DNA of 32,000 nt from Acaryochloris marina MBIC11017 (GTDB taxonomy: Bacteria > Cyanobacteriota > Cyanobacteriia > Thermosynechococcales > Thermosynechococcaceae). Shown here one piece after another: positions 18,694-32,000 of the stretch. The stretch's first letter is position 1. The number at the start of each line of letters is the position of its first letter. A program made the position numbers and the translations under genes. The DNA is taken from positions 4,800,001 through 4,832,000 of the forward strand of contig NC_009925.1 of the NCBI RefSeq assembly GCF_000018105.1, written 5' to 3'. Under the pieces are notes generated by a model, which saw nothing but the letters and a program-made list of their open reading frames with translations, made no database searches and was not told the DNA's origin.

Positions 18694-19976
18694 TCAGACT
18701 TTTATCTTGCCGGTTACAGCATGTGATATCAAAATTTCTCTAAATTCTTGAAGCTTATTGATTTGTTCTTCTGCTCTTACTTGAGCAGTTTCAAAACCAA
18801 GTAACCGATTATCTAGGAAATCTACAATTTGATTCTGCTCTTCTACAGGGGGACAAGCAGTATATAGAGCTCCAATGCGATCGACGTTTAAGTTTTCCTG
18901 AGTACTAACAATTGAGACTTCGTCTAGCCGAGTTTTCAGCACTCCAAACATGTAATAGAGAAAGTCTGCAGAAACTTCACCTGGATTTGGGAAAAAACCA
19001 ACGGCACTATCAGGAAAGCAAGCATTAAAACCTAAAATTGAAACCTCTCCAGTCTTTGCTCCGGTAATAACCATTACAACTGTGCCAGCAGGAAATTCTT
19101 TGCTAACTGCATATCCTCTGGCATTGAGAGTCTGTGAATATTTTGTGATTCTTCTCCCAGCTTGGGATATGTCACCAGTTTGAATGAATGGGTATTGTCC
19201 ACCATAGAACCTTGCATCGTTACGAGGTCTATGAGAAAACTTCCCTCTCAAGATTTGCGTAAGTCTTTTGACACTACACAATTTCCAATGATTAGGAACT
19301 TTTTCTAGTCCATGTATGCCGCGATCGCACATCGGCACATTGGGGTCTAGCCCTTTGGTGACGGCTTGATTGATGAGGATGGCTTTTTGTTCTTGTAGGA
19401 GTTCGATGAGGCGCTGTTTGGTTGCTATGGCATCATCAAGCTCAACAGTTTTCCGATCAAGAAACTCAACAATCCGGCGTTGCTCATCAATCGGAGGAAT
19501 CGTTAAAGGTAAATATTTAAAGTCTGTGTAGTCTAAGTTTTGGCGTAACCCAGACCCCATACCGTAATAGACCTTCAGCAAATCATATGCATGTAAGTAA
19601 ATCTTGGATCTATCTGCTTCGAAGGGGAAAGACATAAATAAGCAGATGTGATAATTCCATGGTCTTGAACTAATCCAATTCGAAGACTCGTTCGATCATT
19701 CTGTAAATCTGTTGCCCGAACAATAATGTCCCCTGGCTCAACAATCTGATAAGTCTCAAAGGATTCAGGTACTAAGCCATGTAGTTTTTCTTTGGGCTTA
19801 ATTACAATTTTTCCATAACTCAGGGATAAAACGGTTTTAACGTGATTACCGATATTTTTTACATTTTTGGGCCTCAGATAATTTCTTCCAAGCTCTACTC
19901 GCCAATGGTTTGGAACCTCATTAAGCCAGGAAACTTGACTATCTTGATAAGTTTCATGTTTTGGGAAAGTCAACAT
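18694..19976 (-). pseudogene. hsdS: type I R-M specificity subunit, disrupted by a frameshift near 19600-19630
   Basis: Two overlapping ORFs (19575..19976 and 18694..19635) together give an HsdS layout: TRD1, the central conserved helix PPIDEQRRIVEFLD, TRD2, and the C-terminal helix PPVEEQNQIVDFLD. The reading frame switches within TRD1. Confidence 0.7.
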
Positions 19977-20071
19977 CCTTTATACCTCCCCAAAACTCAC
20001 CAACCGCTTCAACAAGCCTTCCATCTTCTGCTCCAGCACCAAAATTTCCTCAACCACCGTTTCCCAAATCC

Positions 20072-20410
20072 TCAGCCCACCGCATAGCCAGACGCTTTCC
20101 GCATAAACGGTGAGTGCAGCCCCAACACAATATTCTGTTTAGGAATGCCCTGCTCCACCAGCCGTTCAGCCAAATTAATCTCCGTATTATTGCGCTGAAT
20201 CCAGACCTTATTGTCCTTAATATCAATGTGGACAATGGTGCCGTACACAAACTGCTTTTGCTCCCAGCCCACATCGATCAAAAGATAGTGATTATGCTCC
20301 GCATCAAACACTAGCTGAGACTCCACATCGCTATGGCTAGAGTGATCATAGCCGTGTAACTCCCTGAGCAAATCCTCAACTAAGCATCGATAGTCCTTTA
20401 ACTCAGCCAT
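20072..20410 (-). CDS. xisI: XisI family protein
   Basis: 112 aa. The pattern DAEHNHYLLIDVGWEQKQFVYGTIVHIDIKDNKVWIQRNNTE is typical of XisI. It overlaps the xisH stop by 13 bp. Confidence 0.8.
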   Translation of the reverse strand: MAELKDYRCLVEDLLRELHGYDHSSHSDVESQLVFDAEHNHYLLIDVGWEQKQFVYGTIVHIDIKDNKVWIQRNNTEINLAERLVEQGIPKQNIVLGLHSPFMRKASGYAVG

Positions 20411-20811
20411 TCTAAAATCACCTCCGTTTCAGGCTCATAAACAATCAGCCTAATTTGATATTTTTGAACCACCGACTTTGCCAACAAAGACTGAAAAAAC
20501 GTACTGTAAATCTCTTCAGGAACAGCTAGATATAGCAGACGATTAGGCTCTTTATTTTCCAATGCTACCTGGTAGTTAATAAATTGACCGATAGCCAAAT
20601 GAAAATCGAAAACCACCGAATCACTGGCAAAGGTTTTCACCTCGACGGCAATTTTTTCCTCACCTCGCTCTGCGGCCAAAATACGCTCCGCACCCAAATC
20701 AATATAGATCCGAGTATCGCCAAACTTTAGGCTTAGCGGATCGTCCGTCACCGTCCAGCCTGCACTTTCCAGACCACGCTTCACCGCATCATGAAAGATA
20801 TCTTTAGCCAT
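20398..20811 (-). CDS. xisH: XisH family protein
   Basis: The N-terminus MAKDIFHDAVKRGLESAGWTVTDDPL and the segment IAVEVKTF are typical of XisH. The start was chosen at the ATG at 20811, which overlaps the hsdM stop; the ORF is open to 20826. Confidence 0.8.
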   Translation of the reverse strand: MAKDIFHDAVKRGLESAGWTVTDDPLSLKFGDTRIYIDLGAERILAAERGEEKIAVEVKTFASDSVVFDFHLAIGQFINYQVALENKEPNRLLYLAVPEEIYSTFFQSLLAKSVVQKYQIRLIVYEPETEVILEWLS

Positions 20812-23227
20812 CGGTAGTCGCCCCAAAACTGACTAACCGCTTCAATAAGCCTTCCGTCTTCTTCTCCAGCTCTAAAATTTCCTCAACGACCGTCTCCAGC
20901 TTCCTCAACGGTTTGTGCTGATAAAAATACTTATTGAAATTAATCTCATAGCCAATCTTCGTACTATCCAACGCGATCCAAGCATCCTCAACATGGGGCC
21001 GCACCTCCGCCAAAAAATACCCATGGATCTGCGCCGTACCCCGCTCCAGTGCCTGCCCATAGTTCAACGGCACACTTTCCGTATCCCGCAGCTCACTATC
21101 CGTCTCATACTCAATCCACTGCCCCGCCGTTTCCCCAGGCCAGTACCCAAAGTCCGCCAGGTGCTCCTCCGTGGTGCCCAAATGCTCCAATAACTCCGCT
21201 AGCTTCTCACCCTTCAGCTTATGCACCTTTTTAATCACCCTGGCCGCCGCCTCATCCCGCCAACTCACCGCATTAAAAATTTGCCTCTTCTCACTAGCCG
21301 ACAGCTTGCTGTCCAACTGTCTGGCCAAAGTTTTGAGCGTATCATTCACCCGCTCAGCAAAATCATTAAAATCATGCCAAACCTCCTGCTCCACCGAGGC
21401 CATGAGCTGCTCCGCTACCTGCATCAAATCCCGCTGATTTTCCCAGGTCTTCGCTGTAAACAACGCCTTGCGATTCTTCGCCGTCAGGCTAATTTCTTCC
21501 TTTTCCAGGTATTCCTCAATTTTTTGCTTATGGTCCGTTAGGCTCGTGTAAATCTCATCACCCCACTCACCATAGGCCCACTCCATTACCTCCGCCAGGA
21601 CAGGCACATAGCGCAGCGTCGCCACCCGCTCCGGCGTAAACTGAGCTAACAGCCGCAGGGGCCGTTCCACAGTTACCTTGTAAAAGCCAAAATCCTGATT
21701 ATCAAACACCTTAGAGATGGGCGGCGGTGGCAGCTCCCTATCTTCACTAGGCGGCAACGTCGGCTGATGCACCCGATCTAAATACAGGTGAGTAATCTTC
21801 TCAATCTGCTCCGGTGCAAACTCACAGTTCTTCGCCCCCAGATTCTTCCGCAGCTTGCGATACAGCTCCGACCTATCAATCAGCTGCACCTTTCCCTGCC
21901 GTTCCGGTGCCTTATTATTCGACAGCACCCACACATAGGTGGAAATGCCGGTGTTGTAAAACATATTCTGAGGCAACTGGACGATCGCCTCCAGCCAGTC
22001 ATTTTCAATGATGTAGCGGCGAATATTGCTCTCCCCGCTACCCGCATCCCCTGTAAACAGCGAAGACCCATTGTGAACTGACGCAATTCTGGAACCTGCC
22101 GGACTCTGGTCCAGAGGCTTCATTTTGCTAACCATATCCATTAGAAACAGCAACTGCCCATCCGAAGAGCGGGGCGTTGCCTTCTCTAAACTTTCCTCAT
22201 CCCAAAAATCCTTCAGTGGTAACAAAAACCGCTCATCCAGGACATCCTTGCCATCTAGGATATGTTTTTGATCCGCTGCGTAGGACTTGCCATAGGGTGG
22301 ATTTTCCAGCATGAAATCAAACCGCATTCCGGCAAACTCATCCATCGCCAGCGTCGATCCCAGTTTGATGTTCTCAGGACTATTCCCCTTAATCATCATG
22401 TCCGACTTGCAAATGCCATAGGTCTCCGGGTTGACCTCCTTGCCATAGAGGTAGACCTGAGCATCTGATTTGATTCCCCCCTCCGGGTCGCTGATAAAGT
22501 TTTGGGACTCTGTCAACATCCCCCCTGAACCGCAGGCCCCGTCATAGATCAACATCACGGGCGGAAGCTGCTCCTTCACTGGCATAAACAGCAAGTGTGT
22601 CATCAGCTTGATCACCTCGCGGGGGGTGAAGTGCTCTCCAGCCTCCTCGTTATTTTCTTCGTTAAACTTACGGATCAGCTCCTCAAACACATAGCCCATC
22701 CCCAGATTGCTCAAACCCGCCAGCTTGCGTCCATCCGGATCTTCACCTTGAGTTGGGCTGAAATTGATATAGGGACTCGTAAACTTTTCCAAGACATCTA
22801 ACAGTACATCCGCCTGCACCATCCGTTTGATTTGGTCCCGCAGATAAAAACTGTCAATGATCTCTTTGACGTTCTCGCTAAATCCATCCAGATAGGCTTT
22901 AAAGTTGGCCTCTAAAATTTGGCGGTTATTGGACGCCGTTTCAACTAATCTTTTCAGCGTCCAATCTGAAGTGTTGTAGAACACATAGCCCGAGGCATCC
23001 TTTAACGCACCAGACTCTAGCTCGGTCAGCCCCACGGATTCCCGCTGAAACCGAACCTCTTCCATGACTGCATCCTTGGTCTCCTCCAGCAGACAATCTA
23101 ACCGCCGCAGCACAAACATCGGCAAGATGACATCGCGGTATTTTCCGCGAACGTAGACATCACGCAAGCAGTCATCTGCAATCGACCAAATGAATGAAAT
23201 CAGCTTGTTTTGTGATGCTGCATCCAT
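20804..23227 (-). CDS. hsdM: type I restriction-modification system methyltransferase subunit (long form, 807 aa)
   Basis: HsdM N-terminal domain (LISFIWSIADDCLRDVY), AdoMet motif YDGACGSGGML and catalytic NPPYG motif. The frame is intact throughout. Confidence 0.9.
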   Translation of the reverse strand: MDAASQNKLISFIWSIADDCLRDVYVRGKYRDVILPMFVLRRLDCLLEETKDAVMEEVRFQRESVGLTELESGALKDASGYVFYNTSDWTLKRLVETASNNRQILEANFKAYLDGFSENVKEIIDSFYLRDQIKRMVQADVLLDVLEKFTSPYINFSPTQGEDPDGRKLAGLSNLGMGYVFEELIRKFNEENNEEAGEHFTPREVIKLMTHLLFMPVKEQLPPVMLIYDGACGSGGMLTESQNFISDPEGGIKSDAQVYLYGKEVNPETYGICKSDMMIKGNSPENIKLGSTLAMDEFAGMRFDFMLENPPYGKSYAADQKHILDGKDVLDERFLLPLKDFWDEESLEKATPRSSDGQLLFLMDMVSKMKPLDQSPAGSRIASVHNGSSLFTGDAGSGESNIRRYIIENDWLEAIVQLPQNMFYNTGISTYVWVLSNNKAPERQGKVQLIDRSELYRKLRKNLGAKNCEFAPEQIEKITHLYLDRVHQPTLPPSEDRELPPPPISKVFDNQDFGFYKVTVERPLRLLAQFTPERVATLRYVPVLAEVMEWAYGEWGDEIYTSLTDHKQKIEEYLEKEEISLTAKNRKALFTAKTWENQRDLMQVAEQLMASVEQEVWHDFNDFAERVNDTLKTLARQLDSKLSASEKRQIFNAVSWRDEAAARVIKKVHKLKGEKLAELLEHLGTTEEHLADFGYWPGETAGQWIEYETDSELRDTESVPLNYGQALERGTAQIHGYFLAEVRPHVEDAWIALDSTKIGYEINFNKYFYQHKPLRKLETVVEEILELEKKTEGLLKRLVSFGATTDG

Positions 23228-25261: not shown

Positions 25262-25813
25262 ATGAAAATTAGCCAGAAATATTACTTGATTGTCGATCTT
25301 GAAGCCACCTGTGCAGATGATAATTCCATTCCTCGCCGCAGAATGGAGATGATTGAGATTGGAGCTGTGCTTCTCAACTCACAAACTCTGCAGATAGAAA
25401 GTGAATACCAGACCTTCATAAAGCCCATTCTTCATCCTGTGCTGACTGAGTTTTGCAAATCTCTGACATCCATCTCTCAGCAGGATATTGAAAAGGCCCC
25501 ACTTTTCCCGGCGGCTCTAAAAGATTTTCAATCTTGGTTTTACCCCTGTGGGAGTTATCTGTTTTGCTCTTGGGGAGATTATGATCGGCATCAATTTGTG
25601 CAGGATTGCCAGATGCATGGCGTTGGCTATCCCTTTCCGGGGGATCATCTCAATTTAAAGCGAGCATTCTCTAGCGAGATCAACTCAAAAAAGAAGTTTG
25701 GTATGGCAGGCGCATTGACCGAATTAGGTCTAGAGCTTGAAGGGGTTCATCATCGGGGTATAGATGACGCTCGAAATATTGCCCGCATTGTTCAAACTGC
25801 TTTTTCTGAGTGA
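25262..25813 (+). CDS. DEDDh 3'-5' exonuclease (ERI-1/KapD-like)
   Basis: 183 aa. Exo motifs VDLEAT, WGDYD and HHRGIDDARN. Confidence 0.8.
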   Translation: MKISQKYYLIVDLEATCADDNSIPRRRMEMIEIGAVLLNSQTLQIESEYQTFIKPILHPVLTEFCKSLTSISQQDIEKAPLFPAALKDFQSWFYPCGSYLFCSWGDYDRHQFVQDCQMHGVGYPFPGDHLNLKRAFSSEINSKKKFGMAGALTELGLELEGVHHRGIDDARNIARIVQTAFSE

Positions 25814-25895: not shown

Positions 25896-26405
25896 ATGCT
25901 GTTTACCATTGTCGAGAGTTTCTCTCCTAGAGACGGCGATCGCTGGATCACTTACTGCCGATGGCGGGGATTAGCCTTTACCTGTTTTGATTCGATAGAT
26001 GGCATTCTCAGACCCAGCCTTTTTGATGCAACAGAGAAGGACGATTGGAACCATGTTGTTAATCAGGATTGCAAGACTCACCTAATAACGGATTACGACT
26101 ACGCTGTTCACAAGCAGAGTGAGATAGGGCAGGGAGATCTGGTGGGTTTGAGATTTAGCGAGCATGATCAAAGCGATCCACGATTTTTAAGATTTGATTT
26201 AATCGATGGCTATTGCGACATCTCCTTGCTCACCAATTGGGGAAATGATGTGGATAGTATCAACCGTTCCTTGTCCCCTAATGCGCTAGTACTGAGTTAT
26301 CAGACCGTTAAGGCTATCCAAAAGGAATTGTTGCAGACGAATGGTACGGATCCGCATGTTGAAGGATGTCAGATCGTGTCAATTTACCGACTCAACGAGA
26401 CTTAA
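25896..26405 (+). CDS. hypothetical protein
   Basis: 169-aa ORF, co-directional with the exonuclease and the RT. No recognisable motifs. Confidence 0.45.
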   Translation: MLFTIVESFSPRDGDRWITYCRWRGLAFTCFDSIDGILRPSLFDATEKDDWNHVVNQDCKTHLITDYDYAVHKQSEIGQGDLVGLRFSEHDQSDPRFLRFDLIDGYCDISLLTNWGNDVDSINRSLSPNALVLSYQTVKAIQKELLQTNGTDPHVEGCQIVSIYRLNET

Positions 26406-26600: not shown

Positions 26601-26830
26601 GCTCGGTCAGTTTAGGTTTACCCCTTGCAACCCGAATGGTGCATCGCCATTCATGTGATTAGTCTAAACGCGCATCACTGGCTTGCTCTTTACTGTGCGG
26701 GGCTTCGCCCTACCATCGCTGTTACGGTTTAGTTTCCATGAAACTAACGAGCGATGGTAGGGCGGCCCCGCTCGAGTTGAGCAATCCAGTCCGAAGAGGT
26801 TTACGAAGAGGCGCTGAACTGACCGGGTTT
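26601..26830 (+). ncRNA. retron-like msr/msd non-coding RNA
   Basis: Flanking inverted repeats CGGTCAGTT (26604-26612, followed by TAGG) and AACTGACCG (26817-26825) resemble a1/a2. Small hairpins GAATGG-n7-CCATTC and GTGAT-n14-ATCAC are present. A long imperfect hairpin at 26697-26771 has 7+15+8 bp: GCGGGGC..CGCCCTACCATCGCT..TTAGTTTC-CATG-GAAACTAA..AGCGATGGTAGGGCG.GCCCCGC. It ends 60 nt upstream of the RT start. Confidence 0.55.
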
Positions 26831-26884: not shown

Positions 26885-28315
26885 ATGTCCAATCAACCCC
26901 GTACTCGCCAAGAACTCTACGATCGCGTCCGCCAAAGCTCCCGTGATGAGGTCATCCTAGAAGAAATGGTGCGGTTAGGATTTTGGCCCGCCGAAGGCGA
27001 GATGCCCCAAGATCCAACGGATGAGATTCGACGTAAAGGAGAAATTCAGCGAGAACTGGCAGCACTGCGGGCCGAGAACCGCAAACTGCACAACGAAGCC
27101 GCCATTAAAAAGCAGCTCTACAAAGAGCGACTCGCTGCGTCTAAAAAGAAACGCCAAGAAACCAAAGAACGGAGAGAGCAAGAACGACAGTCCCGAGCCG
27201 CTGCATGGCGGGATCGAAAAGCTCGGGATATTGTCTATCTGGGAACAGGAGTTTCCGGGGGCCTTAATCAGACCGAGTGCGATCGGACCCGACTTCAGCA
27301 ATATGGACTTCCTGCTTACGGAACAGCAGAAGAGATTGCCAAGGCCATGCAGATTAGCGTTGGCCAGTTGCGCTTCTTAGCCTTTTCTCGGCGTACCGCC
27401 CAAATTTCCCACTATGTCCGCTTCAAAATCCCCAAGAAAACTGGGGGAGAACGGCTGATTTCAGCCCCCATGCCCCGCCTGAAGCAGGCCCAATACTGGA
27501 TTGCAGAAAAGCTTCTAGCAGCCATCCCCCTCCACGAAGCTGCTCATGGGTTTTGTTCAGGACGCTCCATCGTTACCAATGCAACGCCACACTTGGGGGC
27601 TGATGTGGTGATTAACCTCGATCTCCAAGATTTTTTCCCGTCTATTTCCTATCCCCGGATTAAAGGCTTATTTCGTTCCTTTGGCTATAGCGAAGCTGCT
27701 GCCACGATTTTTGCCCTGCTCTGTACAGAACCAGATGTGGTGGAGGTGGGCTTGGATGGTCAGCATTACTATGTGGCCCAGTCTCAGCGACATTTACCCC
27801 AAGGGGCACCCACCAGCCCCATATTGACCAATCTGCTCTGTCGGCGTCTAGATCGTCGGTTGACGGCCATGGCGGCAGAGTTGGGATATCGGTATACGCG
27901 CTACGCCGATGATCTAACCTTCTCAGCCACAGGTCAGCCTCAGCAGCAGGTGGGCAAGCTGTTGCGAAGGACCCATGCCATTGTCACCCACGAAGGATTT
28001 ACGATTCATCCCCAAAAGACACGGGTGCTTCGCAGTGGTCGACAACAAGAGGTGACAGGGGTGGTGGTCAACGAAAAGCTGAACGTTGACCGTAAAACCC
28101 TCAAGCGATTTCGGGCGTTGCTCCACCAAATTGAACAGTCAGGCTACGACGATCAACATTGGGGTGGCCAACCAGTATCGTTTGCTCAGATCCAAGGCTA
28201 TGCCAACTTTGTGGAGATGGTGAATCCTGAACGCGGAGCCCAGTTCCAGGCTCAAGTTAAGCGAATTAAGCGCAAGTACCCACCCCGCGTTCAAGCCTTT
28301 AAACCAGCTTCTTGA
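26885..28315 (+). CDS. retron-type reverse transcriptase with ~130-aa N-terminal coiled-coil/basic extension
   Basis: 476 aa. Retron-type RT motifs are present: YVRFKIPKKTGGERLISAP, NLDLQDFFPSI, LPQGAPTSPILTNL, catalytic YADDLTFS and the retron-typical VTGVVVN. Residues 1-130 are rich in K, R and E. Confidence 0.85.
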   Translation: MSNQPRTRQELYDRVRQSSRDEVILEEMVRLGFWPAEGEMPQDPTDEIRRKGEIQRELAALRAENRKLHNEAAIKKQLYKERLAASKKKRQETKERREQERQSRAAAWRDRKARDIVYLGTGVSGGLNQTECDRTRLQQYGLPAYGTAEEIAKAMQISVGQLRFLAFSRRTAQISHYVRFKIPKKTGGERLISAPMPRLKQAQYWIAEKLLAAIPLHEAAHGFCSGRSIVTNATPHLGADVVINLDLQDFFPSISYPRIKGLFRSFGYSEAAATIFALLCTEPDVVEVGLDGQHYYVAQSQRHLPQGAPTSPILTNLLCRRLDRRLTAMAAELGYRYTRYADDLTFSATGQPQQQVGKLLRRTHAIVTHEGFTIHPQKTRVLRSGRQQEVTGVVVNEKLNVDRKTLKRFRALLHQIEQSGYDDQHWGGQPVSFAQIQGYANFVEMVNPERGAQFQAQVKRIKRKYPPRVQAFKPAS

Positions 28316-29720
28316 TTTCACCATAGGCACGATAGAAGCCACCGCGGGCAGATTCCCGCAGGTCTTCGACCACGTAGCGCGCTCCTGCTTCCCGCATCTC
28401 TTTGGGGAATTGGACATTCCAGTCGGTGTGATAACCCGCAGATTCCACCCGGACTCGCAATTTACTGCCGTCTTTTACACAGACTAAGATGATGCCCTGG
28501 CCAGCCTGGGTGGTGGTTTCTAACGTAGACGAAGCTGCGATCGCATCTAGTTTCGGCGCTTTCACATTCACCACATCCGGCACCGTACCAGCTTGAGCGG
28601 CTTGAATGGCGGCTTCACTAGCATCAATACAGGCCAACGAGCCATCCGTCGTCACAATATATAGACGATCTTGAATAAACTGCATGGAGAAGGCCGACCC
28701 ACATCCGGTTCCCAGCTTCCAGAGACGTTTGCCGTCTGCATCAAAACAATAAATAGAAGAGGAACTGTCTCCCGCAAAGACATATTTGCCGTCTGCCGCC
28801 GCTGCACAGGAATAAACCTGGTTATCGCATTTGAGAACTTGTTCTTGCTGCCCCTGTTTTGTAAAGCAATAGACCTGGCCCTGACTGGTACCGGCATACA
28901 CGGTTGACTCTTCCTGCCAGCCAAACAGGACCGCCCCCTGAGTTCGCTGATTCCAAATCACCTGACCGTCTTCCCAGTCATACATCGTCACTCCACCGAC
29001 ATGGCCATGGTAAACGCCGATCTCATCGCACCGGACCATCCAGCCGTGATCGCCACTACTGCGTTGATGCCACTGGGATTCTTCTTCATGGTTAATGGTG
29101 GTGACGACACCCTGGCGATCCGAGACCCCCAAAATCCCGTCGTTGATATCCAGCCAAAAGATATCGACATCCTCGGCAATAGAATAGGCCACTCGGGGGA
29201 TTTTACCGCTTAGGTCGTAGACTTTGCCATCGTCACAACCGGCATAGAGCCAATCATCATCAGCCACAATGCATTTAACGCCATCGGGAAGTTTAAACTC
29301 TTGAATGACGTTGCCATCGGGGGTGAGGGTAAAAATTTGTCCCTTTTGATTGCCTACCCAGCATCGCGATTCATCAATAAAGATGCCAAAGGCGGAGGCA
29401 CCAGAGGCAAACTTCCAGAGGACGGGCGCACGCTTGGCCGAGGAGCGGGTGCTGGTGATTTCCCGCCGAGTAATGGCCCGCTTCTTCCGTACCCCCTGGA
29501 CTGCATGTTCATAGCCTTTGCGCAGCTTGGCTTTGATTTTCTTCTCGGCTTCTGCTTTGGCTTTTTCGGGGGTCGCCAAGGTTTTCTCTTGGGTTTGGCC
29601 CGCATTGCCAATCCGTCCATACCGGATTTTTAATTCGGTGCCATTCACCACCACTTCGTAAAACTTGTGGGCAACCCCTTCGTCTTCTGACAGCTCTAAA
29701 TACGTTCTTTCTTCAGCCAT
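28299..29720 (-). CDS. WGR domain protein fused to a PQQ/BamB-like beta-propeller and an uncharacterised C-terminal domain
   Basis: 473 aa. N-terminal WGR pattern (HKFYEVVVNGTELKIRYGRIGNAGQTQEKTL...KLRKGY), a basic linker, then repeated beta-strand blades (DDDWLYAGCDDGKVYDL, VYAGTSQGQVYCF, YVFAGDSSSSIYCFD, LYIVTTDGSLACID). Its 3' end overlaps the RT 3' end by 17 bp. Confidence 0.7.
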   Translation of the reverse strand: MAEERTYLELSEDEGVAHKFYEVVVNGTELKIRYGRIGNAGQTQEKTLATPEKAKAEAEKKIKAKLRKGYEHAVQGVRKKRAITRREITSTRSSAKRAPVLWKFASGASAFGIFIDESRCWVGNQKGQIFTLTPDGNVIQEFKLPDGVKCIVADDDWLYAGCDDGKVYDLSGKIPRVAYSIAEDVDIFWLDINDGILGVSDRQGVVTTINHEEESQWHQRSSGDHGWMVRCDEIGVYHGHVGGVTMYDWEDGQVIWNQRTQGAVLFGWQEESTVYAGTSQGQVYCFTKQGQQEQVLKCDNQVYSCAAAADGKYVFAGDSSSSIYCFDADGKRLWKLGTGCGSAFSMQFIQDRLYIVTTDGSLACIDASEAAIQAAQAGTVPDVVNVKAPKLDAIAASSTLETTTQAGQGIILVCVKDGSKLRVRVESAGYHTDWNVQFPKEMREAGARYVVEDLRESARGGFYRAYGEIKKLV

Positions 29721-29829
29721 GCTGATCCTCTCTAATCCTCTGTCCTATAGGATTCACCTATCAGATCCAGTTTGACGCAAGGGGGGATCAATTCTCGTAG
29801 ATAAGCGTAAGGATGGCGATTGCACAGGC

Positions 29830-32000
29830 CTAGGCCATCACTTTGACGTGAGCATTCTCTAGATATCGATCCAGCGCGGCTTGTAGTTCCTCTGTGCGGA
29901 TCGGCTTACTGACATAGTCTTGCATCCCAACTGCTAGGCATCGCTCTCGATCCCCCTGCATGGCATTGGCAGTCAGGGCAATAATATGGGGGCGATCCTC
30001 GGCGTCCCATTCCTTTTGAATGGTGGCTGCTGCCGTCAGGCCATCCATCTCCGGCATATGTACGTCCATCAAAACAATGTCATAGGTTTGGCGCTTTAAG
30101 GCTGCTAAGACTTCATGGCCATCATTGGCGACATCAGCGCTATACCCCAGTTGTTTCAGGATCAGTAAGGCGACTTTCTGGTTTACGGCCACATCTTCTG
30201 CCAGCAAAATACGTAGGGATGCCGGGCTGACTCGCTCAGGCTCCGGCGGCTGTTCTTCTGGTTCGGCAGGCTCTCCAAAAATATTAGCCAGAACATCATG
30301 GAGCCGTGACTGTTGAATCGGTTTGTTTAGGATAGCTGCGAAGTTGATATTCCCCTGCTGTTGAATCAACTCATCTTTGCCCAAAGAACTCAACATCACT
30401 AAGGGAAAGTCTGCCAACTGTTCCCGAATCCGCTTGGCCAAGGTTAACCCATCCATTTCTGGCATTTGCATATCCAGAACGGCCAGATCAAACCCATGAT
30501 CGGCGGTGAGTAATGCTAGGGCTGCGGCTCCTCCCGGAACGGCCTCGCTGGTCATGCCCCAAGCTTTTGCTTGCAGGGTTAGAATTTTACGGTTAGTGGG
30601 ATTGTCGTCCACGATCAGCAGATGCTTGCCATCCAAATGGGCGGGAGAAATGATGGGTCGCTGAGCGGGATCAGCAATGGGGACGGAAATCGTGAAGCAG
30701 AAAGAAGACCCTTTGCCCACGTCACTTTCGACCCACATGCGGCCACCCATTAGCTCGCACAGCCGATGACAAATGGCTAACCCTAATCCGGTGCCGCCAT
30801 ATTTGCGGGTGGTGGAGGCGTCCACTTGGCTAAAGGATTTGAACAATCGATCCATTCGATCAGCAGGAATGCCGATTCCCGTGTCTTTGACTACAATCTG
30901 GAGGATATGGTGACCCTTTCGGACTGGAGCGGCATGATCTGCTGTGACATCTTGAATATAGACCACCACTTCTCCCGTGTCTGTAAATTTGACACCGTTG
31001 GTGAGGAGGTTGACGATAATTTGTCGTAGCCGGGTCACATCCCCGATAATCCATTCGGGAGTATCAGGTTCAAATAGGTACGCCAATTCTAAGGATTTAT
31101 CTACTGCTCTGGGGGCGACGATACGGAGGGCCTGTTCGATACAAATTCGGAGGTCAAAGGGTTGGTTCTCAAATTCCAGTTTGCCTGCTTCTATTTTGGA
31201 GAAATCTAAAATATCGTTAATCAGGCTGAGTAATGCATCCCCACTGCTGCGAATGGTTTCTACAAAGTCAGCCTGTTGCAGATCTAAATCTGTATTCAGA
31301 AGTAGACCGGTCATGCCAATGACGGCATTCATGGGGGTCCGCAACTCATGGCTCATATTGGCTAGAAACTGAGATTTAGCGGTGTTGGCCGTATCAGCGT
31401 CCCGCTTGGCCTGCACGAGGGCCGTATTGTTGCTTTCTAAGGCCTGGCGCTGCTGTTGCTCTTGCTCTAAGAGTTGGGCTTGGGCAATGGCAATGCCCAC
31501 CTGACCCGCCACGGCTTCTAATAGTTCGATGTCTGCTTCGGACCAAGTGCGGTTGCGATCGCACTGATGTAGCACAATCACCCCATTGGCCTGACCCTGA
31601 TAGGAGGTGCGAGTCGCCAGTAGGGACTGGAGCTGTGCCTGCTCACAAAATTGGATTTCTCCCTCGGTCATCTGGTCCCGATCTAGTTCAGGTATGGCCC
31701 ATACGCGATCATGACCAAAGATTTCTGACAGCAGGGGATGATTGCCCATCTCCAGTTCCAGGCAAGAGGCGTAATCCATCTCCAAATACTCCGCCAGATC
31801 AGAGTCTGCTGAAATCTGGGCGGCATAGCTCTGAATAAAGCAGCGATTGGTTTCGAGGGTATAGCCCAACTGGTCAACGGTGGTTTGAAAAATATGCTGG
31901 GTATCAAGGCTGCGGCGAATGTCTTGGGTAATCTGCTCGATGAGTAAGACCCGCTGAATTTGCAGGTTTAAATTCTGGTTGGCGGCTTCTAAGGCGGCAG
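29830..32000 (-). CDS. hybrid sensor histidine kinase (GAF-HisKA-HATPase_c-REC-REC), 5' end outside window
   Basis: H-box SHELRTPMN, plus N, G1 and G2 boxes (DTGIGI, GGTGLGL). Two receiver domains (DDNPTNR...DMQMPEMDG; EDVAVNQ...DVHMPEMDG). The frame remains open from 31869 to nt 32000, where GAF-like sequence starts. Confidence 0.85.

What the first reader, a model, noticed from the sequence alone, without database searches (positions are those of the whole stretch)
28299..29720. WGR-beta-propeller protein convergent with and overlapping the retron RT: candidate partner or effector
A 473-aa protein combines an N-terminal WGR domain, a basic linker, a PQQ/BamB-like propeller and an unassigned C-terminal domain of about 70 aa. 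In PARP-type proteins the WGR domain is a nucleic-acid-end sensor. Its stop codon lies 17 bp inside the RT coding sequence on the opposite strand. A DNA-end-sensing domain next to a system that makes an ssDNA/RNA hybrid is suggestive. I do not recognise this pairing among described retron effector sets. The 3'-3' overlap would also allow antisense or transcriptional-interference coupling.
Basis: inference. Interest (0 to 1): 0.65.

Follow-up and report, generated by a model that had tools for sequence, protein, structure and literature searches.

The report
Uncatalogued WGR-propeller partner of type XIII retrons
The gene beside this retron reverse transcriptase encodes a very conserved, non-enzymatic WGR-propeller protein that forms an operon with type XIII retron genes in four bacterial phyla, so it is probably an overlooked accessory subunit of the least understood retron type, not a toxin effector.

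Summary
A 473-aa ORF (28299-29720, minus strand) encodes a WGR domain, an invariant Arg/Lys-rich linker, a 7-bladed PQQ-like propeller and a small C-terminal beta domain. It overlaps the RT gene by 17 bp.

The RT is a type XIII (Mx162-like) retron RT. Its msr/msd ncRNA is intact and supported by covariation.

- In Myxococcota (17/17 informative loci), one Acidobacteriota MAG, one Gloeobacteraceae MAG and one gammaproteobacterium, the gene is first in the operon WGR-propeller > WGR_XIII/HEAT > SWIM_XIII > RT_XIII.
- In at least five other cyanobacterial or cyanobacterium-like loci it lies within 6 kb of the RT.
- Its divergence tracks the RT's.

"Effector" is not supported, because no catalytic domain is found. 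Antisense coupling is not supported, because the overlap is not conserved.

The link is facultative. None of 28 actinobacterial copies, and most cyanobacterial copies, has a retron gene within 10 kb. One 11.85-Mb Nonomuraea replicon has the gene but no type XIII RT. Some type XIII cassettes lack the gene.

A WGR partner (WGR+HEAT) is already known for type XIII. This propeller protein is not in Mestre 2020 or PADLOC.

The C-terminal domain has no Pfam family. It recurs in duplicate in VWA proteins encoded beside type XIII RTs.

Verdict: a new variant of a known kind, of moderate interest.

The parts
28299..29720 (-). WGR-propeller-Cdom protein gene (473 aa), whole CDS including the stop codon
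   Evidence: ORF list. Homologs 98% down to 66% identical, nearly all 472-482 aa. AF2 model pLDDT 82.8.
29499..29714 (-). N-terminal WGR domain (aa 3-74)
   Evidence: Pfam PF05406, E 2.5e-17. It is 39% identical over 67 aa to the WGR of Archangium WGR_XIII/HEAT. It also matches the PDB WGR protein 2ra8 at E 4e-7.
29424..29498 (-). Conserved Arg/Lys-rich linker (aa 75-99), predicted disordered
   Evidence: Invariant G76 R78 K80 R81 T84 R85 R86 S90 S93 P99 across 16 sequences. pLDDT is 50-68. A nucleic-acid or partner contact is an inference.
28623..29423 (-). Seven-bladed PQQ/BamB-like beta-propeller (aa 100-366)
   Evidence: Pfam PQQ_2 and Beta-prop_ACSF4. 28 strands in the AF2 model. Foldseek matches designer and BamB/YxaL propellers at E~1e-13.
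28302..28505 (-). C-terminal all-beta domain ('Cdom', aa 406-473), no Pfam family; shared with VWA proteins encoded next to type XIII RTs
   Evidence: No Pfam match. It is 45-55% identical to two tandem copies in the VWA protein of L004/L083. A profile search finds 521 representative proteins, and their architectures were scanned. Folded alone the core has pLDDT ~85. PDB hits are non-significant and OB-like only.
28299..28315 (.). 17-bp 3'-3' overlap of the two CDSs
   Evidence: Coordinates. Not conserved: L014 has a 71-bp gap. Homolog alignments of the RT end at about aa 465 of 476.
26885..28315 (+). Type XIII retron reverse transcriptase (476 aa)
   Evidence: PADLOC RT_XIII, E 8e-200. Pfam RVT_1. 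57-70% identical to RTs in the cyanobacterial and myxobacterial loci with type XIII genes.
26601..26828 (+). Retron ncRNA (msr-msd): closing a1/a2 stem 26601-26615 / 26814-26828, msr hairpin about 26634-26652, long msd hairpin 26677-26790
   Evidence: Inverted repeats. MFE -111.6 kcal/mol, z -8.19. Conserved with 8 other cyanobacterial and myxobacterial loci, with 29 of 56 pairs showing compensatory changes. No Rfam family matches.

Best explanation
The gene encodes a non-catalytic accessory subunit that works with type XIII (Mx162-like) retron systems in the lineages that have both.

Proposed mechanism (inferred): the WGR domain, the invariant basic linker and the small C-terminal beta domain bind nucleic acid, most plausibly the retron's msDNA/msr hybrid or a DNA/RNA end. 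The seven-bladed propeller serves as a protein-docking platform for the other components (WGR_XIII/HEAT scaffold, SWIM/DEDE protein, RT). The protein would then be a sensor or adaptor rather than the killing or effector activity.

The window shows a fragmented cyanobacterial version of the system. Only the ncRNA-RT module and this gene remain adjacent, in convergent orientation. No SWIM or HEAT gene lies in the window, within 10 kb beyond the window's 3' end, or within about 27 kb upstream of the RT.

Shown: the domain architecture; conserved operon membership in four phyla; recurrent adjacency in cyanobacteria; correlated divergence with the RT; an intact retron ncRNA; and sharing of the C-terminal domain with a second RT-adjacent protein family (VWA-2xCdom).

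Inferred: physical association with the retron complex; nucleic-acid binding; and the division of labour among the domains.
For: (1) Operon. In Archangium L020 the order is WGR-propeller > WGR_XIII (PADLOC PDLC02973, E=0) > SWIM_XIII (E 1.6e-235) > RT_XIII (E 5e-188). The same order holds in 17/17 myxobacterial loci with >=1.5 kb of downstream sequence. In most of them the first two genes are only 5-8 nt apart (two loci, L033 and L035, have gaps of about 0.8-0.9 kb). One Acidobacteriota MAG shows WGR-propeller > HEAT > SWIM up to the contig end; one Gloeobacteraceae MAG shows the HEAT gene starting right after the WGR-propeller gene before the contig ends; and one Competibacteraceae gammaproteobacterium shows all four genes.

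(2) Unbiased clustering of all ORFs in the 80 reference-genome loci found only HEAT (18 loci), RT (17) and SWIM (16) as recurrent neighbours.

(3) Cyanobacterial or cyanobacterium-like loci. L014 (Pseudanabaena) has the same convergent RT/WGR-propeller pair as the window. L004, L083 and L102 have HEAT>SWIM>RT>VWA-2xCdom (L102: RT>VWA-2xCdom) facing the WGR-propeller gene, with gaps of about 2.8-5.4 kb between the two genes. With about 20 kb of flank per locus in genomes of about 6 Mb, chance predicts about 0.1 such cases among 27 loci; 3 were seen in the reference set, plus the window, L083 and L102 (rough estimate, inference).

(4) Pairwise divergence of WGR-propeller versus RT gives r 0.97 and rho 0.86 over 19 loci. 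This is comparable to RT-SWIM (0.93/0.92) and RT-HEAT (0.99/0.96).

(5) The C-terminal domain recurs twice in a VWA protein encoded directly downstream of type XIII RTs. The best representative hit of its profile (P0241) lies between an RT and a WGR-propeller gene.

(6) Its WGR domain is 39% identical to the WGR of the known type XIII accessory protein.

(7) The retron here is intact.

(8) From established knowledge: WGR domains of PARP1-3 contact DNA breaks.
Against: The association is facultative.

Gene without retron: none of 28 actinobacterial loci and 24 of 27 cyanobacterial reference loci has a retron gene within 10 kb. The 11.85-Mb Nonomuraea gerenzanensis replicon carries the gene at 62% identity, but no type XIII RT was found in it at E<=1e-60. 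The Deinococcus deserti plasmid copy sits among unrelated genes.

Retron without gene: complete cassettes lack the gene nearby in Nostocales L093, Aerosakkonema L095 and Methylobacterium L100, and the whole 2.8-Mb Methylobacterium record has no copy. Myxococcus, Stigmatella and Corallococcus orthologs were absent from the top 120 hits of the Archangium protein. This suggests, but does not prove, that the classical Mx162/Sa163 retron hosts lack it.

Other caveats: the 60-74% identity across phyla is unusual for proteins of arms-race systems and would also fit a housekeeping role. Mirror-tree correlations are inflated by shared phylogeny. Nothing here shows binding to msDNA or to the RT. The OB-like fold match of the C-terminal domain is not significant (best E 0.09).
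Confidence: 0.6

Rival explanations
1. It is an autonomous, broadly conserved cellular nucleic-acid-binding protein, for example acting on DNA or RNA ends in repair or processing, whose function does not need the retron. Under this view its position at the head of the type XIII operon in some lineages reflects co-regulation or a secondary recruitment, and the adjacency in the window is a remnant of that ancestry.
For: Standalone copies occur in unrelated contexts in 28/28 actinobacterial loci and 24/27 cyanobacterial reference loci. The Nonomuraea replicon has the gene without a type XIII RT. The Deinococcus plasmid copy sits among unrelated genes. Identity is uniformly high (60-74%) and length is fixed across phyla. 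There are no viral copies. In L103 the gene is intact while the downstream retron genes look degraded.
Against: Gene order with gaps of a few nucleotides is conserved across Myxococcia, Polyangia-like lineages, Acidobacteriota, Gloeobacterales and a gammaproteobacterium, which is hard to explain without functional coupling. No other conserved neighbour exists. The C-terminal domain is shared with another RT-adjacent protein family. The rival is not exclusive of the main explanation: the protein could have both retron-linked and retron-independent roles.
Confidence: 0.27
2. It is the toxic effector of this particular retron, replacing the SWIM/DEDE and HEAT proteins that are missing from the locus, as the first reader proposed as one option.
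For: It is the only type-XIII-linked gene adjacent to the RT in the window and within 10 kb beyond the window's 3' end. Retron types generally pair the RT with one effector (Mestre 2020).
Against: No enzymatic, pore-forming or toxin domain appears in Pfam, NCBIfam or PADLOC or by fold search. In the operonic lineages it coexists with SWIM and HEAT rather than replacing them. The same highly conserved protein occurs without any retron, which is not expected of a toxin held in check by msDNA.
Confidence: 0.06
3. The functional link is regulatory: convergent overlapping transcription of the RT and the WGR-propeller gene produces antisense or transcriptional-interference coupling.
For: The 17-bp CDS overlap leaves no room for an intergenic terminator. 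No terminator-like site was found in the overlap region, and the two terminator-like sites in 27900-30000 lie inside the WGR-propeller gene and are no more than chance predicts.
Against: The overlap is not conserved. L014 has a 71-bp gap; L004, L083 and L102 have kilobases between the genes; and the operonic lineages are co-directional. The overlap falls in the RT's non-conserved C-terminal tail. In Moorena an unrelated membrane-protein ORF overlaps the RT 3' end in the same way, so such overlaps arise incidentally.
Confidence: 0.04
4. The adjacency in the window is pure chance.
For: Most cyanobacterial copies are unlinked to the RT.
Against: Adjacency recurs in independent lineages and operon membership holds in four phyla. 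The chance expectation is about 0.1 linked loci among 27 (inference from genome and flank sizes).
Confidence: 0.03

Closest known systems
Type XIII retron systems (Mestre et al. 2020, RT clade 10: Mx162, Mx65, Sa163, Ne144; PADLOC models RT_XIII, SWIM_XIII, WGR_XIII, HEAT-ARM_XIII)
   Same: The RT is RT_XIII (E 8e-200). The ncRNA has a1/a2 repeats and a long msd hairpin, conserved with myxobacterial loci. In related loci the WGR-propeller gene is in one operon with WGR_XIII/HEAT, SWIM_XIII and the RT.
   Different: The WGR-propeller protein is not among the associated clusters described by Mestre et al., and the only PADLOC model it hits is a weak propeller-region match to HEAT-ARM_XIII PDLC02919 (E 6e-6). 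The window locus lacks SWIM_XIII and WGR_XIII/HEAT altogether.
[quoted passage not shown]
   Same: It has an N-terminal WGR domain, 39% identical over 67 aa. It is encoded in the same operon, immediately upstream of WGR_XIII/HEAT. Both are non-catalytic repeat scaffolds.
   Different: It has a seven-bladed propeller plus the Cdom instead of about 900 aa of HEAT/ARM repeats. It has no HMM match to PDLC02973. It is much more conserved: about 65% identity between cyanobacteria and myxobacteria, against about 39-47% for HEAT.
PARP1/2/3 WGR domains (DNA-break sensing)
   Same: It belongs to Pfam WGR. Nucleic-acid-end recognition is the only experimentally established WGR function (established knowledge).
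   Different: There is no PARP catalytic, helical or zinc-finger domain. DNA binding by this protein is untested.
BamB / YxaL PQQ-type beta-propellers
   Same: The propeller fold and PQQ-like repeats match.
   Different: The N-terminus is acidic, with no signal peptide or lipobox (sequence). The NCBIfam BamB score is 43.7 against a cut-off of 285. It has 7 rather than 8 blades in the model. The protein is cytoplasmic and fused to WGR. The annotations 'BamB' and 'molybdenum metabolism regulator' seen on homologs are name transfers.
VWA-2xCdom proteins encoded downstream of type XIII RTs (L004, L083, L102)
   Same: They share the unassigned C-terminal beta domain at 45-55% identity and the genomic association with RT_XIII.
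   Different: The N-terminal module differs (VWA rather than WGR-propeller), and the domain is duplicated. Some members are not retron-linked: VWA-Cdom-ART sits next to a type I R-M helicase subunit, and VWA-2xCdom sits next to a PARG gene.

Membership tests
Type XIII retron system (locus level) | RT belonging to clade 10 / matching RT_XIII | tested here: met
   PADLOC PDLC02956 RT_XIII, E 8e-200, 662.8 bits, near full length.
Type XIII retron system (locus level) | msr-msd ncRNA next to the RT, with flanking a1/a2 inverted repeats and a long msd hairpin | tested here: met
   Inverted repeats and hairpins. Fold z -8.19. 29 of 56 pairs show compensatory changes in a 9-locus alignment that includes myxobacteria. 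No Rfam model exists for it.
Type XIII retron system (locus level) | Adjacent SWIM/winged-helix/DEDE protein (cluster 114_1, SWIM_XIII) | tested here: not met
   tblastn with two SWIM_XIII proteins finds nothing in the 32-kb window. Nothing resembling it is called within 10 kb beyond the window's 3' end. It is present in related loci.
Type XIII retron system (locus level) | Adjacent WGR-like + HEAT/ARM accessory protein (cluster 216_1, WGR_XIII) | tested here: not met
   No tblastn hit in the window. It is present immediately downstream of the WGR-propeller gene in Myxococcota and other operonic lineages.
Type XIII retron system (locus level) | Production of msDNA (branched RNA-DNA) | not testable with these tools
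   Needs msDNA extraction and gel or sequencing from the host or from a heterologous expression strain.
WGR_XIII protein family (PADLOC PDLC02973) | HMM match over the ~970-position profile with C-terminal HEAT/ARM repeats | tested here: not met
   No hit to PDLC02973 at E<=0.01. The body of the protein is a beta-propeller, not a helical repeat. Only the 67-aa WGR is similar.
WGR domain superfamily (PF05406) | Pfam WGR match above the gathering threshold | tested here: met
   63.2 bits against a cut-off of 22, aa 5-74.
PARP-type enzymes | ADP-ribosyltransferase catalytic domain | tested here: not met
   No PARP or ART domain in Pfam. The fold search of the whole model returns only propellers.
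BamB (outer-membrane assembly lipoprotein) | Equivalog-level HMM score, signal peptide and lipobox | tested here: not met
   TIGR03300 scores 43.7 bits against a cut-off of 285.2. The N-terminus MAEERTYLELSEDEG has no hydrophobic signal.
Retron effector (generic: toxin or enzyme restrained by RT-msDNA) | Recognisable enzymatic or toxic module (nuclease, NDT, TIR, protease, TM, ATPase, etc.) | tested here: not met
   None in Pfam, NCBIfam or PADLOC. Fold searches show only a propeller and a small beta domain whose best matches are non-significant and OB-like. Toxicity itself was not tested.

The most novel reading that the evidence does not exclude
Type XIII retrons, including relatives of the first retron ever found (Mx162), may really be systems of four or more components. 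Their most conserved protein would be this WGR-propeller-Cdom subunit. Together with the VWA-2xCdom proteins, it would use a previously undescribed small beta domain (possibly OB-like) and a WGR domain to read the state of the msDNA. The unusually slow evolution (60-74% identity across phyla), the absence from viral contigs, and the distribution in cyanobacteria, myxobacteria, filamentous actinobacteria and Chloroflexota would mark this as a domesticated nucleic-acid-sensing module. It would be able to work with or without the RT, rather than being a typical fast-evolving phage-defence toxin system. The ART and PARG neighbours of Cdom proteins hint at a link to ADP-ribosylation.
Probability: 0.2. 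Interest if true: 0.8.

Novelty: new variant of a known kind. Interest (0 to 1): 0.55.

Why it matters
Type XIII is among the more abundant and most widely distributed retron types (third most abundant in the 2026 SPIRE survey). It includes the founding retrons Mx162 and Sa163. Yet no function, effector mechanism or structure is known for it: no PDB entry was found, and I found no paper on its function.

A fourth, extremely conserved gene heading the operon in several phyla gives experimenters a concrete and soluble handle. A 473-aa, non-toxic-looking protein can be used for pull-downs, msDNA-binding assays and cryo-EM of the complex.

The result also shows that current annotation resources (PADLOC and the Mestre classification) miss a recurrent component. 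It defines a new domain shared by two families of retron-adjacent proteins.

The facultative distribution offers natural experiments on what the retron adds: the gene without a retron in actinobacteria, and the retron without the gene in Methylobacterium and probably in Myxococcus.

Tried and rejected
- The metagenome scan with the single RT sequence returned only 2 loci. An alignment query should have been used, so no large RT-centred census was possible. It was replaced by five RT context look-ups and searches.
- Rfam has no family for the ncRNA.
- The first ncRNA alignment, made at fixed distance from the RT start, was misaligned. It was redone by anchoring on a conserved motif.
- Pfam at E<=10 gave nothing credible for the C-terminal domain. 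PDB Foldseek gave no significant hit, so the OB-like resemblance is only a lead.
- The supplementary tables of Mestre 2020 are not held. I could not check whether the propeller protein hides in one of their non-reported clusters.
- Promoter and terminator scans around the gene were no better than chance.
- The DEDDh exonuclease and the 169-aa ORF upstream of the ncRNA were tested as conserved partners. No homolog appeared in any of the 80 reference loci, so they are not general components.
- The Moorena ORF overlapping the RT 3' end turned out to be an unrelated membrane protein.
- A viral-contig scan found no copies.
- I could not test whether actinobacterial genomes with the gene carry a type XIII RT elsewhere, apart from the Nonomuraea replicon that is filed as a plasmid in PLSDB.


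Full report
OBSERVATION. The ORF list confirms a 473-aa ATG ORF at 28299..29720 on the minus strand and a 476-aa RT ORF at 26885..28315 on the plus strand. They overlap by 17 bp at their 3' ends (28299-28315). Pfam finds a WGR domain at aa 5-74 (E 2.5e-17) and PQQ/BamB-type propeller repeats. An AlphaFold2 model built on 16 homologs (pLDDT 82.8) shows four parts: WGR at 3-67; a low-confidence linker at 68-99; 28 strands forming seven four-stranded blades at 100-366; and, after a short helix and a second linker, an independent all-beta domain at about 410-472. The 'basic linker' is not a spacer. It contains ten invariant positions, including R78, K80, R81, R85 and R86. The N-terminus is acidic and has no signal peptide. 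NCBIfam's BamB model scores far below its cut-off. The annotations 'BamB' and 'molybdenum metabolism regulator' on some homologs are therefore name transfers.

THE RETRON. The RT matches PADLOC RT_XIII at E 8e-200. This is the clade of Mx162, Mx65, Sa163 and Ne144 (Mestre et al. 2020, PMC7736814). Upstream, at 26601-26828, there is a closing inverted repeat (a1/a2), a short hairpin and a long nested hairpin. The fold is far more stable than shuffled sequence (z -8.19). After anchoring on a conserved motif, the region aligns with eight other loci from cyanobacteria and from Haliangiales/Kofleriaceae. RNAalifold finds 56 pairs, and 29 of them show compensatory double changes. The ncRNA-RT module is therefore an intact type XIII retron. 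Rfam has no model for it. The other canonical type XIII genes are missing from this locus. Neither SWIM_XIII nor WGR_XIII/HEAT has a tblastn match anywhere in the window. The window maps to chromosome AP026075.1, and the 10 kb beyond its 3' end holds two-component signalling, H-NOX and methyltransferase genes instead.

WHAT IS ALREADY KNOWN. [quoted passage not shown] They report that the RT co-evolves with cluster 216. Their main text never mentions a propeller, PQQ, BamB or WD40 protein. The present protein does not match PADLOC's WGR_XIII model. Full-text searches found no paper linking such a protein to retrons, and a 2026 survey of retron diversity does not mention it.

THE FAMILY AND ITS NEIGHBOURS. 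The protein has >1,700 homologs at E<=1e-5. The best 120 are 98% down to 66% identical and nearly all 472-482 aa long. A scan of one genome per species found at least 588 loci. The best 80 span Cyanobacteria, Myxococcota, Actinomycetota, Acidobacteriota, Chloroflexota and Gammaproteobacteria, all at 60-73% identity. tblastn of the retron proteins against these loci and domain scans show that in Archangium the gene is followed, 5-8 nt later, by WGR_XIII/HEAT (PADLOC E=0), then SWIM_XIII (E 1.6e-235), then RT_XIII (E 5e-188). Counts by phylum are:
- Myxococcota: 17/17 loci with enough downstream sequence have WGR_XIII/HEAT next on the same strand (two of them after a gap of about 0.8-0.9 kb).
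- Acidobacteriota: 1/1.
- Gloeobacteraceae: one short contig shows the beginning of the same arrangement (the HEAT gene starts right after the WGR-propeller gene).
- Cyanobacteria: 3/27 loci have any retron gene.
- Actinomycetota: 0/28.
A Competibacteraceae gammaproteobacterium has the same four-gene order. There the three downstream genes are uncalled or split and the RT is only 43-45% identical. An unbiased all-against-all clustering of ORFs in the 80 loci found no recurrent neighbours other than HEAT, RT and SWIM.

Among cyanobacterial and cyanobacterium-like loci, L014 (Pseudanabaena) has the same convergent RT/WGR-propeller pair as the window. L004 (Coleofasciculus) and L083 (Aphanothece) have HEAT>SWIM>RT>VWA facing the WGR-propeller gene, and metagenome contig L102 has RT>VWA facing it; the RT and the WGR-propeller gene are about 2.8-5.4 kb apart. 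Other RT loci keep HEAT>SWIM>RT without the gene (L093, L095) or have the RT alone (L097). Pairwise divergence of the WGR-propeller protein correlates with that of the RT (r 0.97, rho 0.86, 19 loci). This is similar to the accepted components, with the caveat that shared phylogeny inflates such values.

LIMITS OF THE ASSOCIATION. The plasmid database contains an 11.85-Mb Nonomuraea gerenzanensis replicon that carries the gene at 62% identity. It has no type XIII RT at E<=1e-60, a threshold that still detected Clostridium type XIII RTs of 33% identity. A Deinococcus deserti plasmid copy sits among unrelated genes. Conversely, a 2.8-Mb Methylobacterium record has HEAT>SWIM>RT but no copy of the gene. 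Searching with the Archangium protein returned no Myxococcus, Stigmatella or Corallococcus orthologs among 120 hits, which included Myxococcaceae MAGs at 77-81%. The classical Mx162 and Sa163 hosts probably lack the gene. This is an inference from absence in a ranked list. It may explain why the gene was not catalogued. No copy occurs on viral contigs.

THE C-TERMINAL DOMAIN. It has no Pfam family. Unexpectedly, it is 45-55% identical to two tandem copies at the C-terminus of a 613-aa VWA protein encoded right after the type XIII RT in L004 and L083. A profile of the domain finds 521 representative proteins (219 at E<=1e-10). Most are (WGR-)propeller-Cdom or VWA-2xCdom. Rarer forms include cyclase-VWA-2xCdom, DUF2779-2xCdom and VWA-Cdom-ADP-ribosyltransferase. 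The top representative lies between an RT and a WGR-propeller gene on contig L102. Others are not retron-linked: one is next to a type I R-M helicase subunit and one is next to a PARG gene. Folded alone, the core has pLDDT about 85. PDB Foldseek gives no significant match, although the best-ranked hits are OB-fold DNA binders such as HIN-200, Teb1, SSB and RPA at E 0.09-0.7. That is a lead and not evidence.

THE OVERLAP. In L014 the same convergent genes are 71 bp apart. Elsewhere they are kilobases apart or co-directional. In the window the overlap lies in the last 11 residues of the RT, which do not align with homologs. In Moorena an unrelated ORF overlaps the RT end in the same way. Promoter and terminator scans are at chance level. 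There is no support for selected antisense coupling.

INTERPRETATION. The best-supported reading (confidence about 0.6) is that this protein is a non-catalytic accessory subunit of a widespread subclade of type XIII retron systems. It carries putative nucleic-acid-binding parts (WGR, basic linker, perhaps the Cdom) and a protein-docking propeller. The window shows a dispersed cyanobacterial arrangement in which only the ncRNA-RT module and this gene stayed together. The main rival (about 0.27) is that it is an autonomous cellular protein only secondarily linked to the retron. The two readings can both be partly true, given the facultative distribution. 'Effector', 'antisense coupling' and 'chance' are each unlikely. 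No solved structure exists for a type XIII retron or for this protein.

VERDICT. The specific WGR-propeller-Cdom family and its shared C-terminal domain nevertheless appear to be undescribed components. I rate it a new variant of a known kind, with interest 0.55.

Noticed in passing
window 28302-28562; L004 14672-16513 (-); L083 13063-14901 (-); L102 1933-3759: The unassigned C-terminal domain of the WGR-propeller protein is also present as a tandem pair in VWA proteins encoded directly downstream of type XIII RTs. It has no Pfam family and defines a new module found in 521 representative proteins.
   Followed up: yes
L091 2814-5969 (P0369); L101 22-2896 (P0247 and its neighbour): Cdom proteins show an ADP-ribosylation theme. 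One is a VWA-Cdom-ART (NAD:arginine ADP-ribosyltransferase) fusion next to a type I R-M helicase subunit. Another VWA-2xCdom gene is followed by a microbial PARG gene. Together with the PARP-associated WGR domain this is suggestive, but it rests on two cases.
   Followed up: no
window 25262-25813 and 25896-26405 (+): A KapD-like DEDDh 3'-5' exonuclease and a 169-aa protein with no family match lie immediately upstream of the retron ncRNA on the RT strand. Apart from this species' own contigs (L084-L088), the 80 reference-genome loci hold no homolog of either, so they may be a strain-specific addition. They are possibly relevant to msDNA processing, or simply neighbours.
   Followed up: partly
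window 18694-23227 (-); L097 8796-9541: A type I R-M system (HsdM, HsdS) with embedded XisH/XisI genes lies about 3.5 kb upstream of the retron. In Moorena producens the lone type XIII RT is also directly preceded by XisH/XisI.
   Followed up: no
L083 18645-18910 and L095 8678-8943: In Aphanothece and Aerosakkonema the conserved msr/msd ncRNA stays next to the SWIM gene and is separated from the RT by an inserted gene (a hemolysin-type Ca-binding protein and a 303-aa ORF, respectively). Aerosakkonema also has a HicAB pair inserted between HEAT and SWIM. The cassette therefore tolerates insertions between the ncRNA and the RT.
   Followed up: partly
L103 11429-17971: In a Competibacteraceae MAG the WGR-propeller gene is intact, but the downstream HEAT, SWIM and RT genes are uncalled or split by apparent frameshifts, and the RT is unusually divergent. 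This could be a decaying retron that leaves a standalone WGR-propeller gene, or it could be MAG assembly error.
   Followed up: partly
(family-wide): Identity plateaus at about 60-70% whether the comparison is within a phylum or between phyla (Archangium versus Kofleriaceae 66-67%, versus cyanobacteria 64-69%). This suggests very strong constraint over the whole length, inter-phylum transfer, or both. SWIM_XIII behaves similarly (62-75% between cyanobacteria and myxobacteria).
   Followed up: partly
L004 3671-9205 (-); L093 11928-17348 (-): A giant Ser/Thr kinase-AAA_16-GAF-histidine kinase protein (about 1800 aa) flanks the retron or WGR-propeller locus in both Coleofasciculus and a Nostocales genome. 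Such proteins are abundant in cyanobacteria, so this may be coincidence.
   Followed up: no
PADLOC PDLC02919 (HEAT-ARM_XIII, 1972 positions): Positions about 107-245 of this type XIII accessory-protein model match propeller blades of both the window protein and an unrelated WD40 protein encoded next to the WGR-propeller gene in L004. Some catalogued type XIII HEAT/ARM proteins therefore appear to carry an N-terminal propeller.
   Followed up: no
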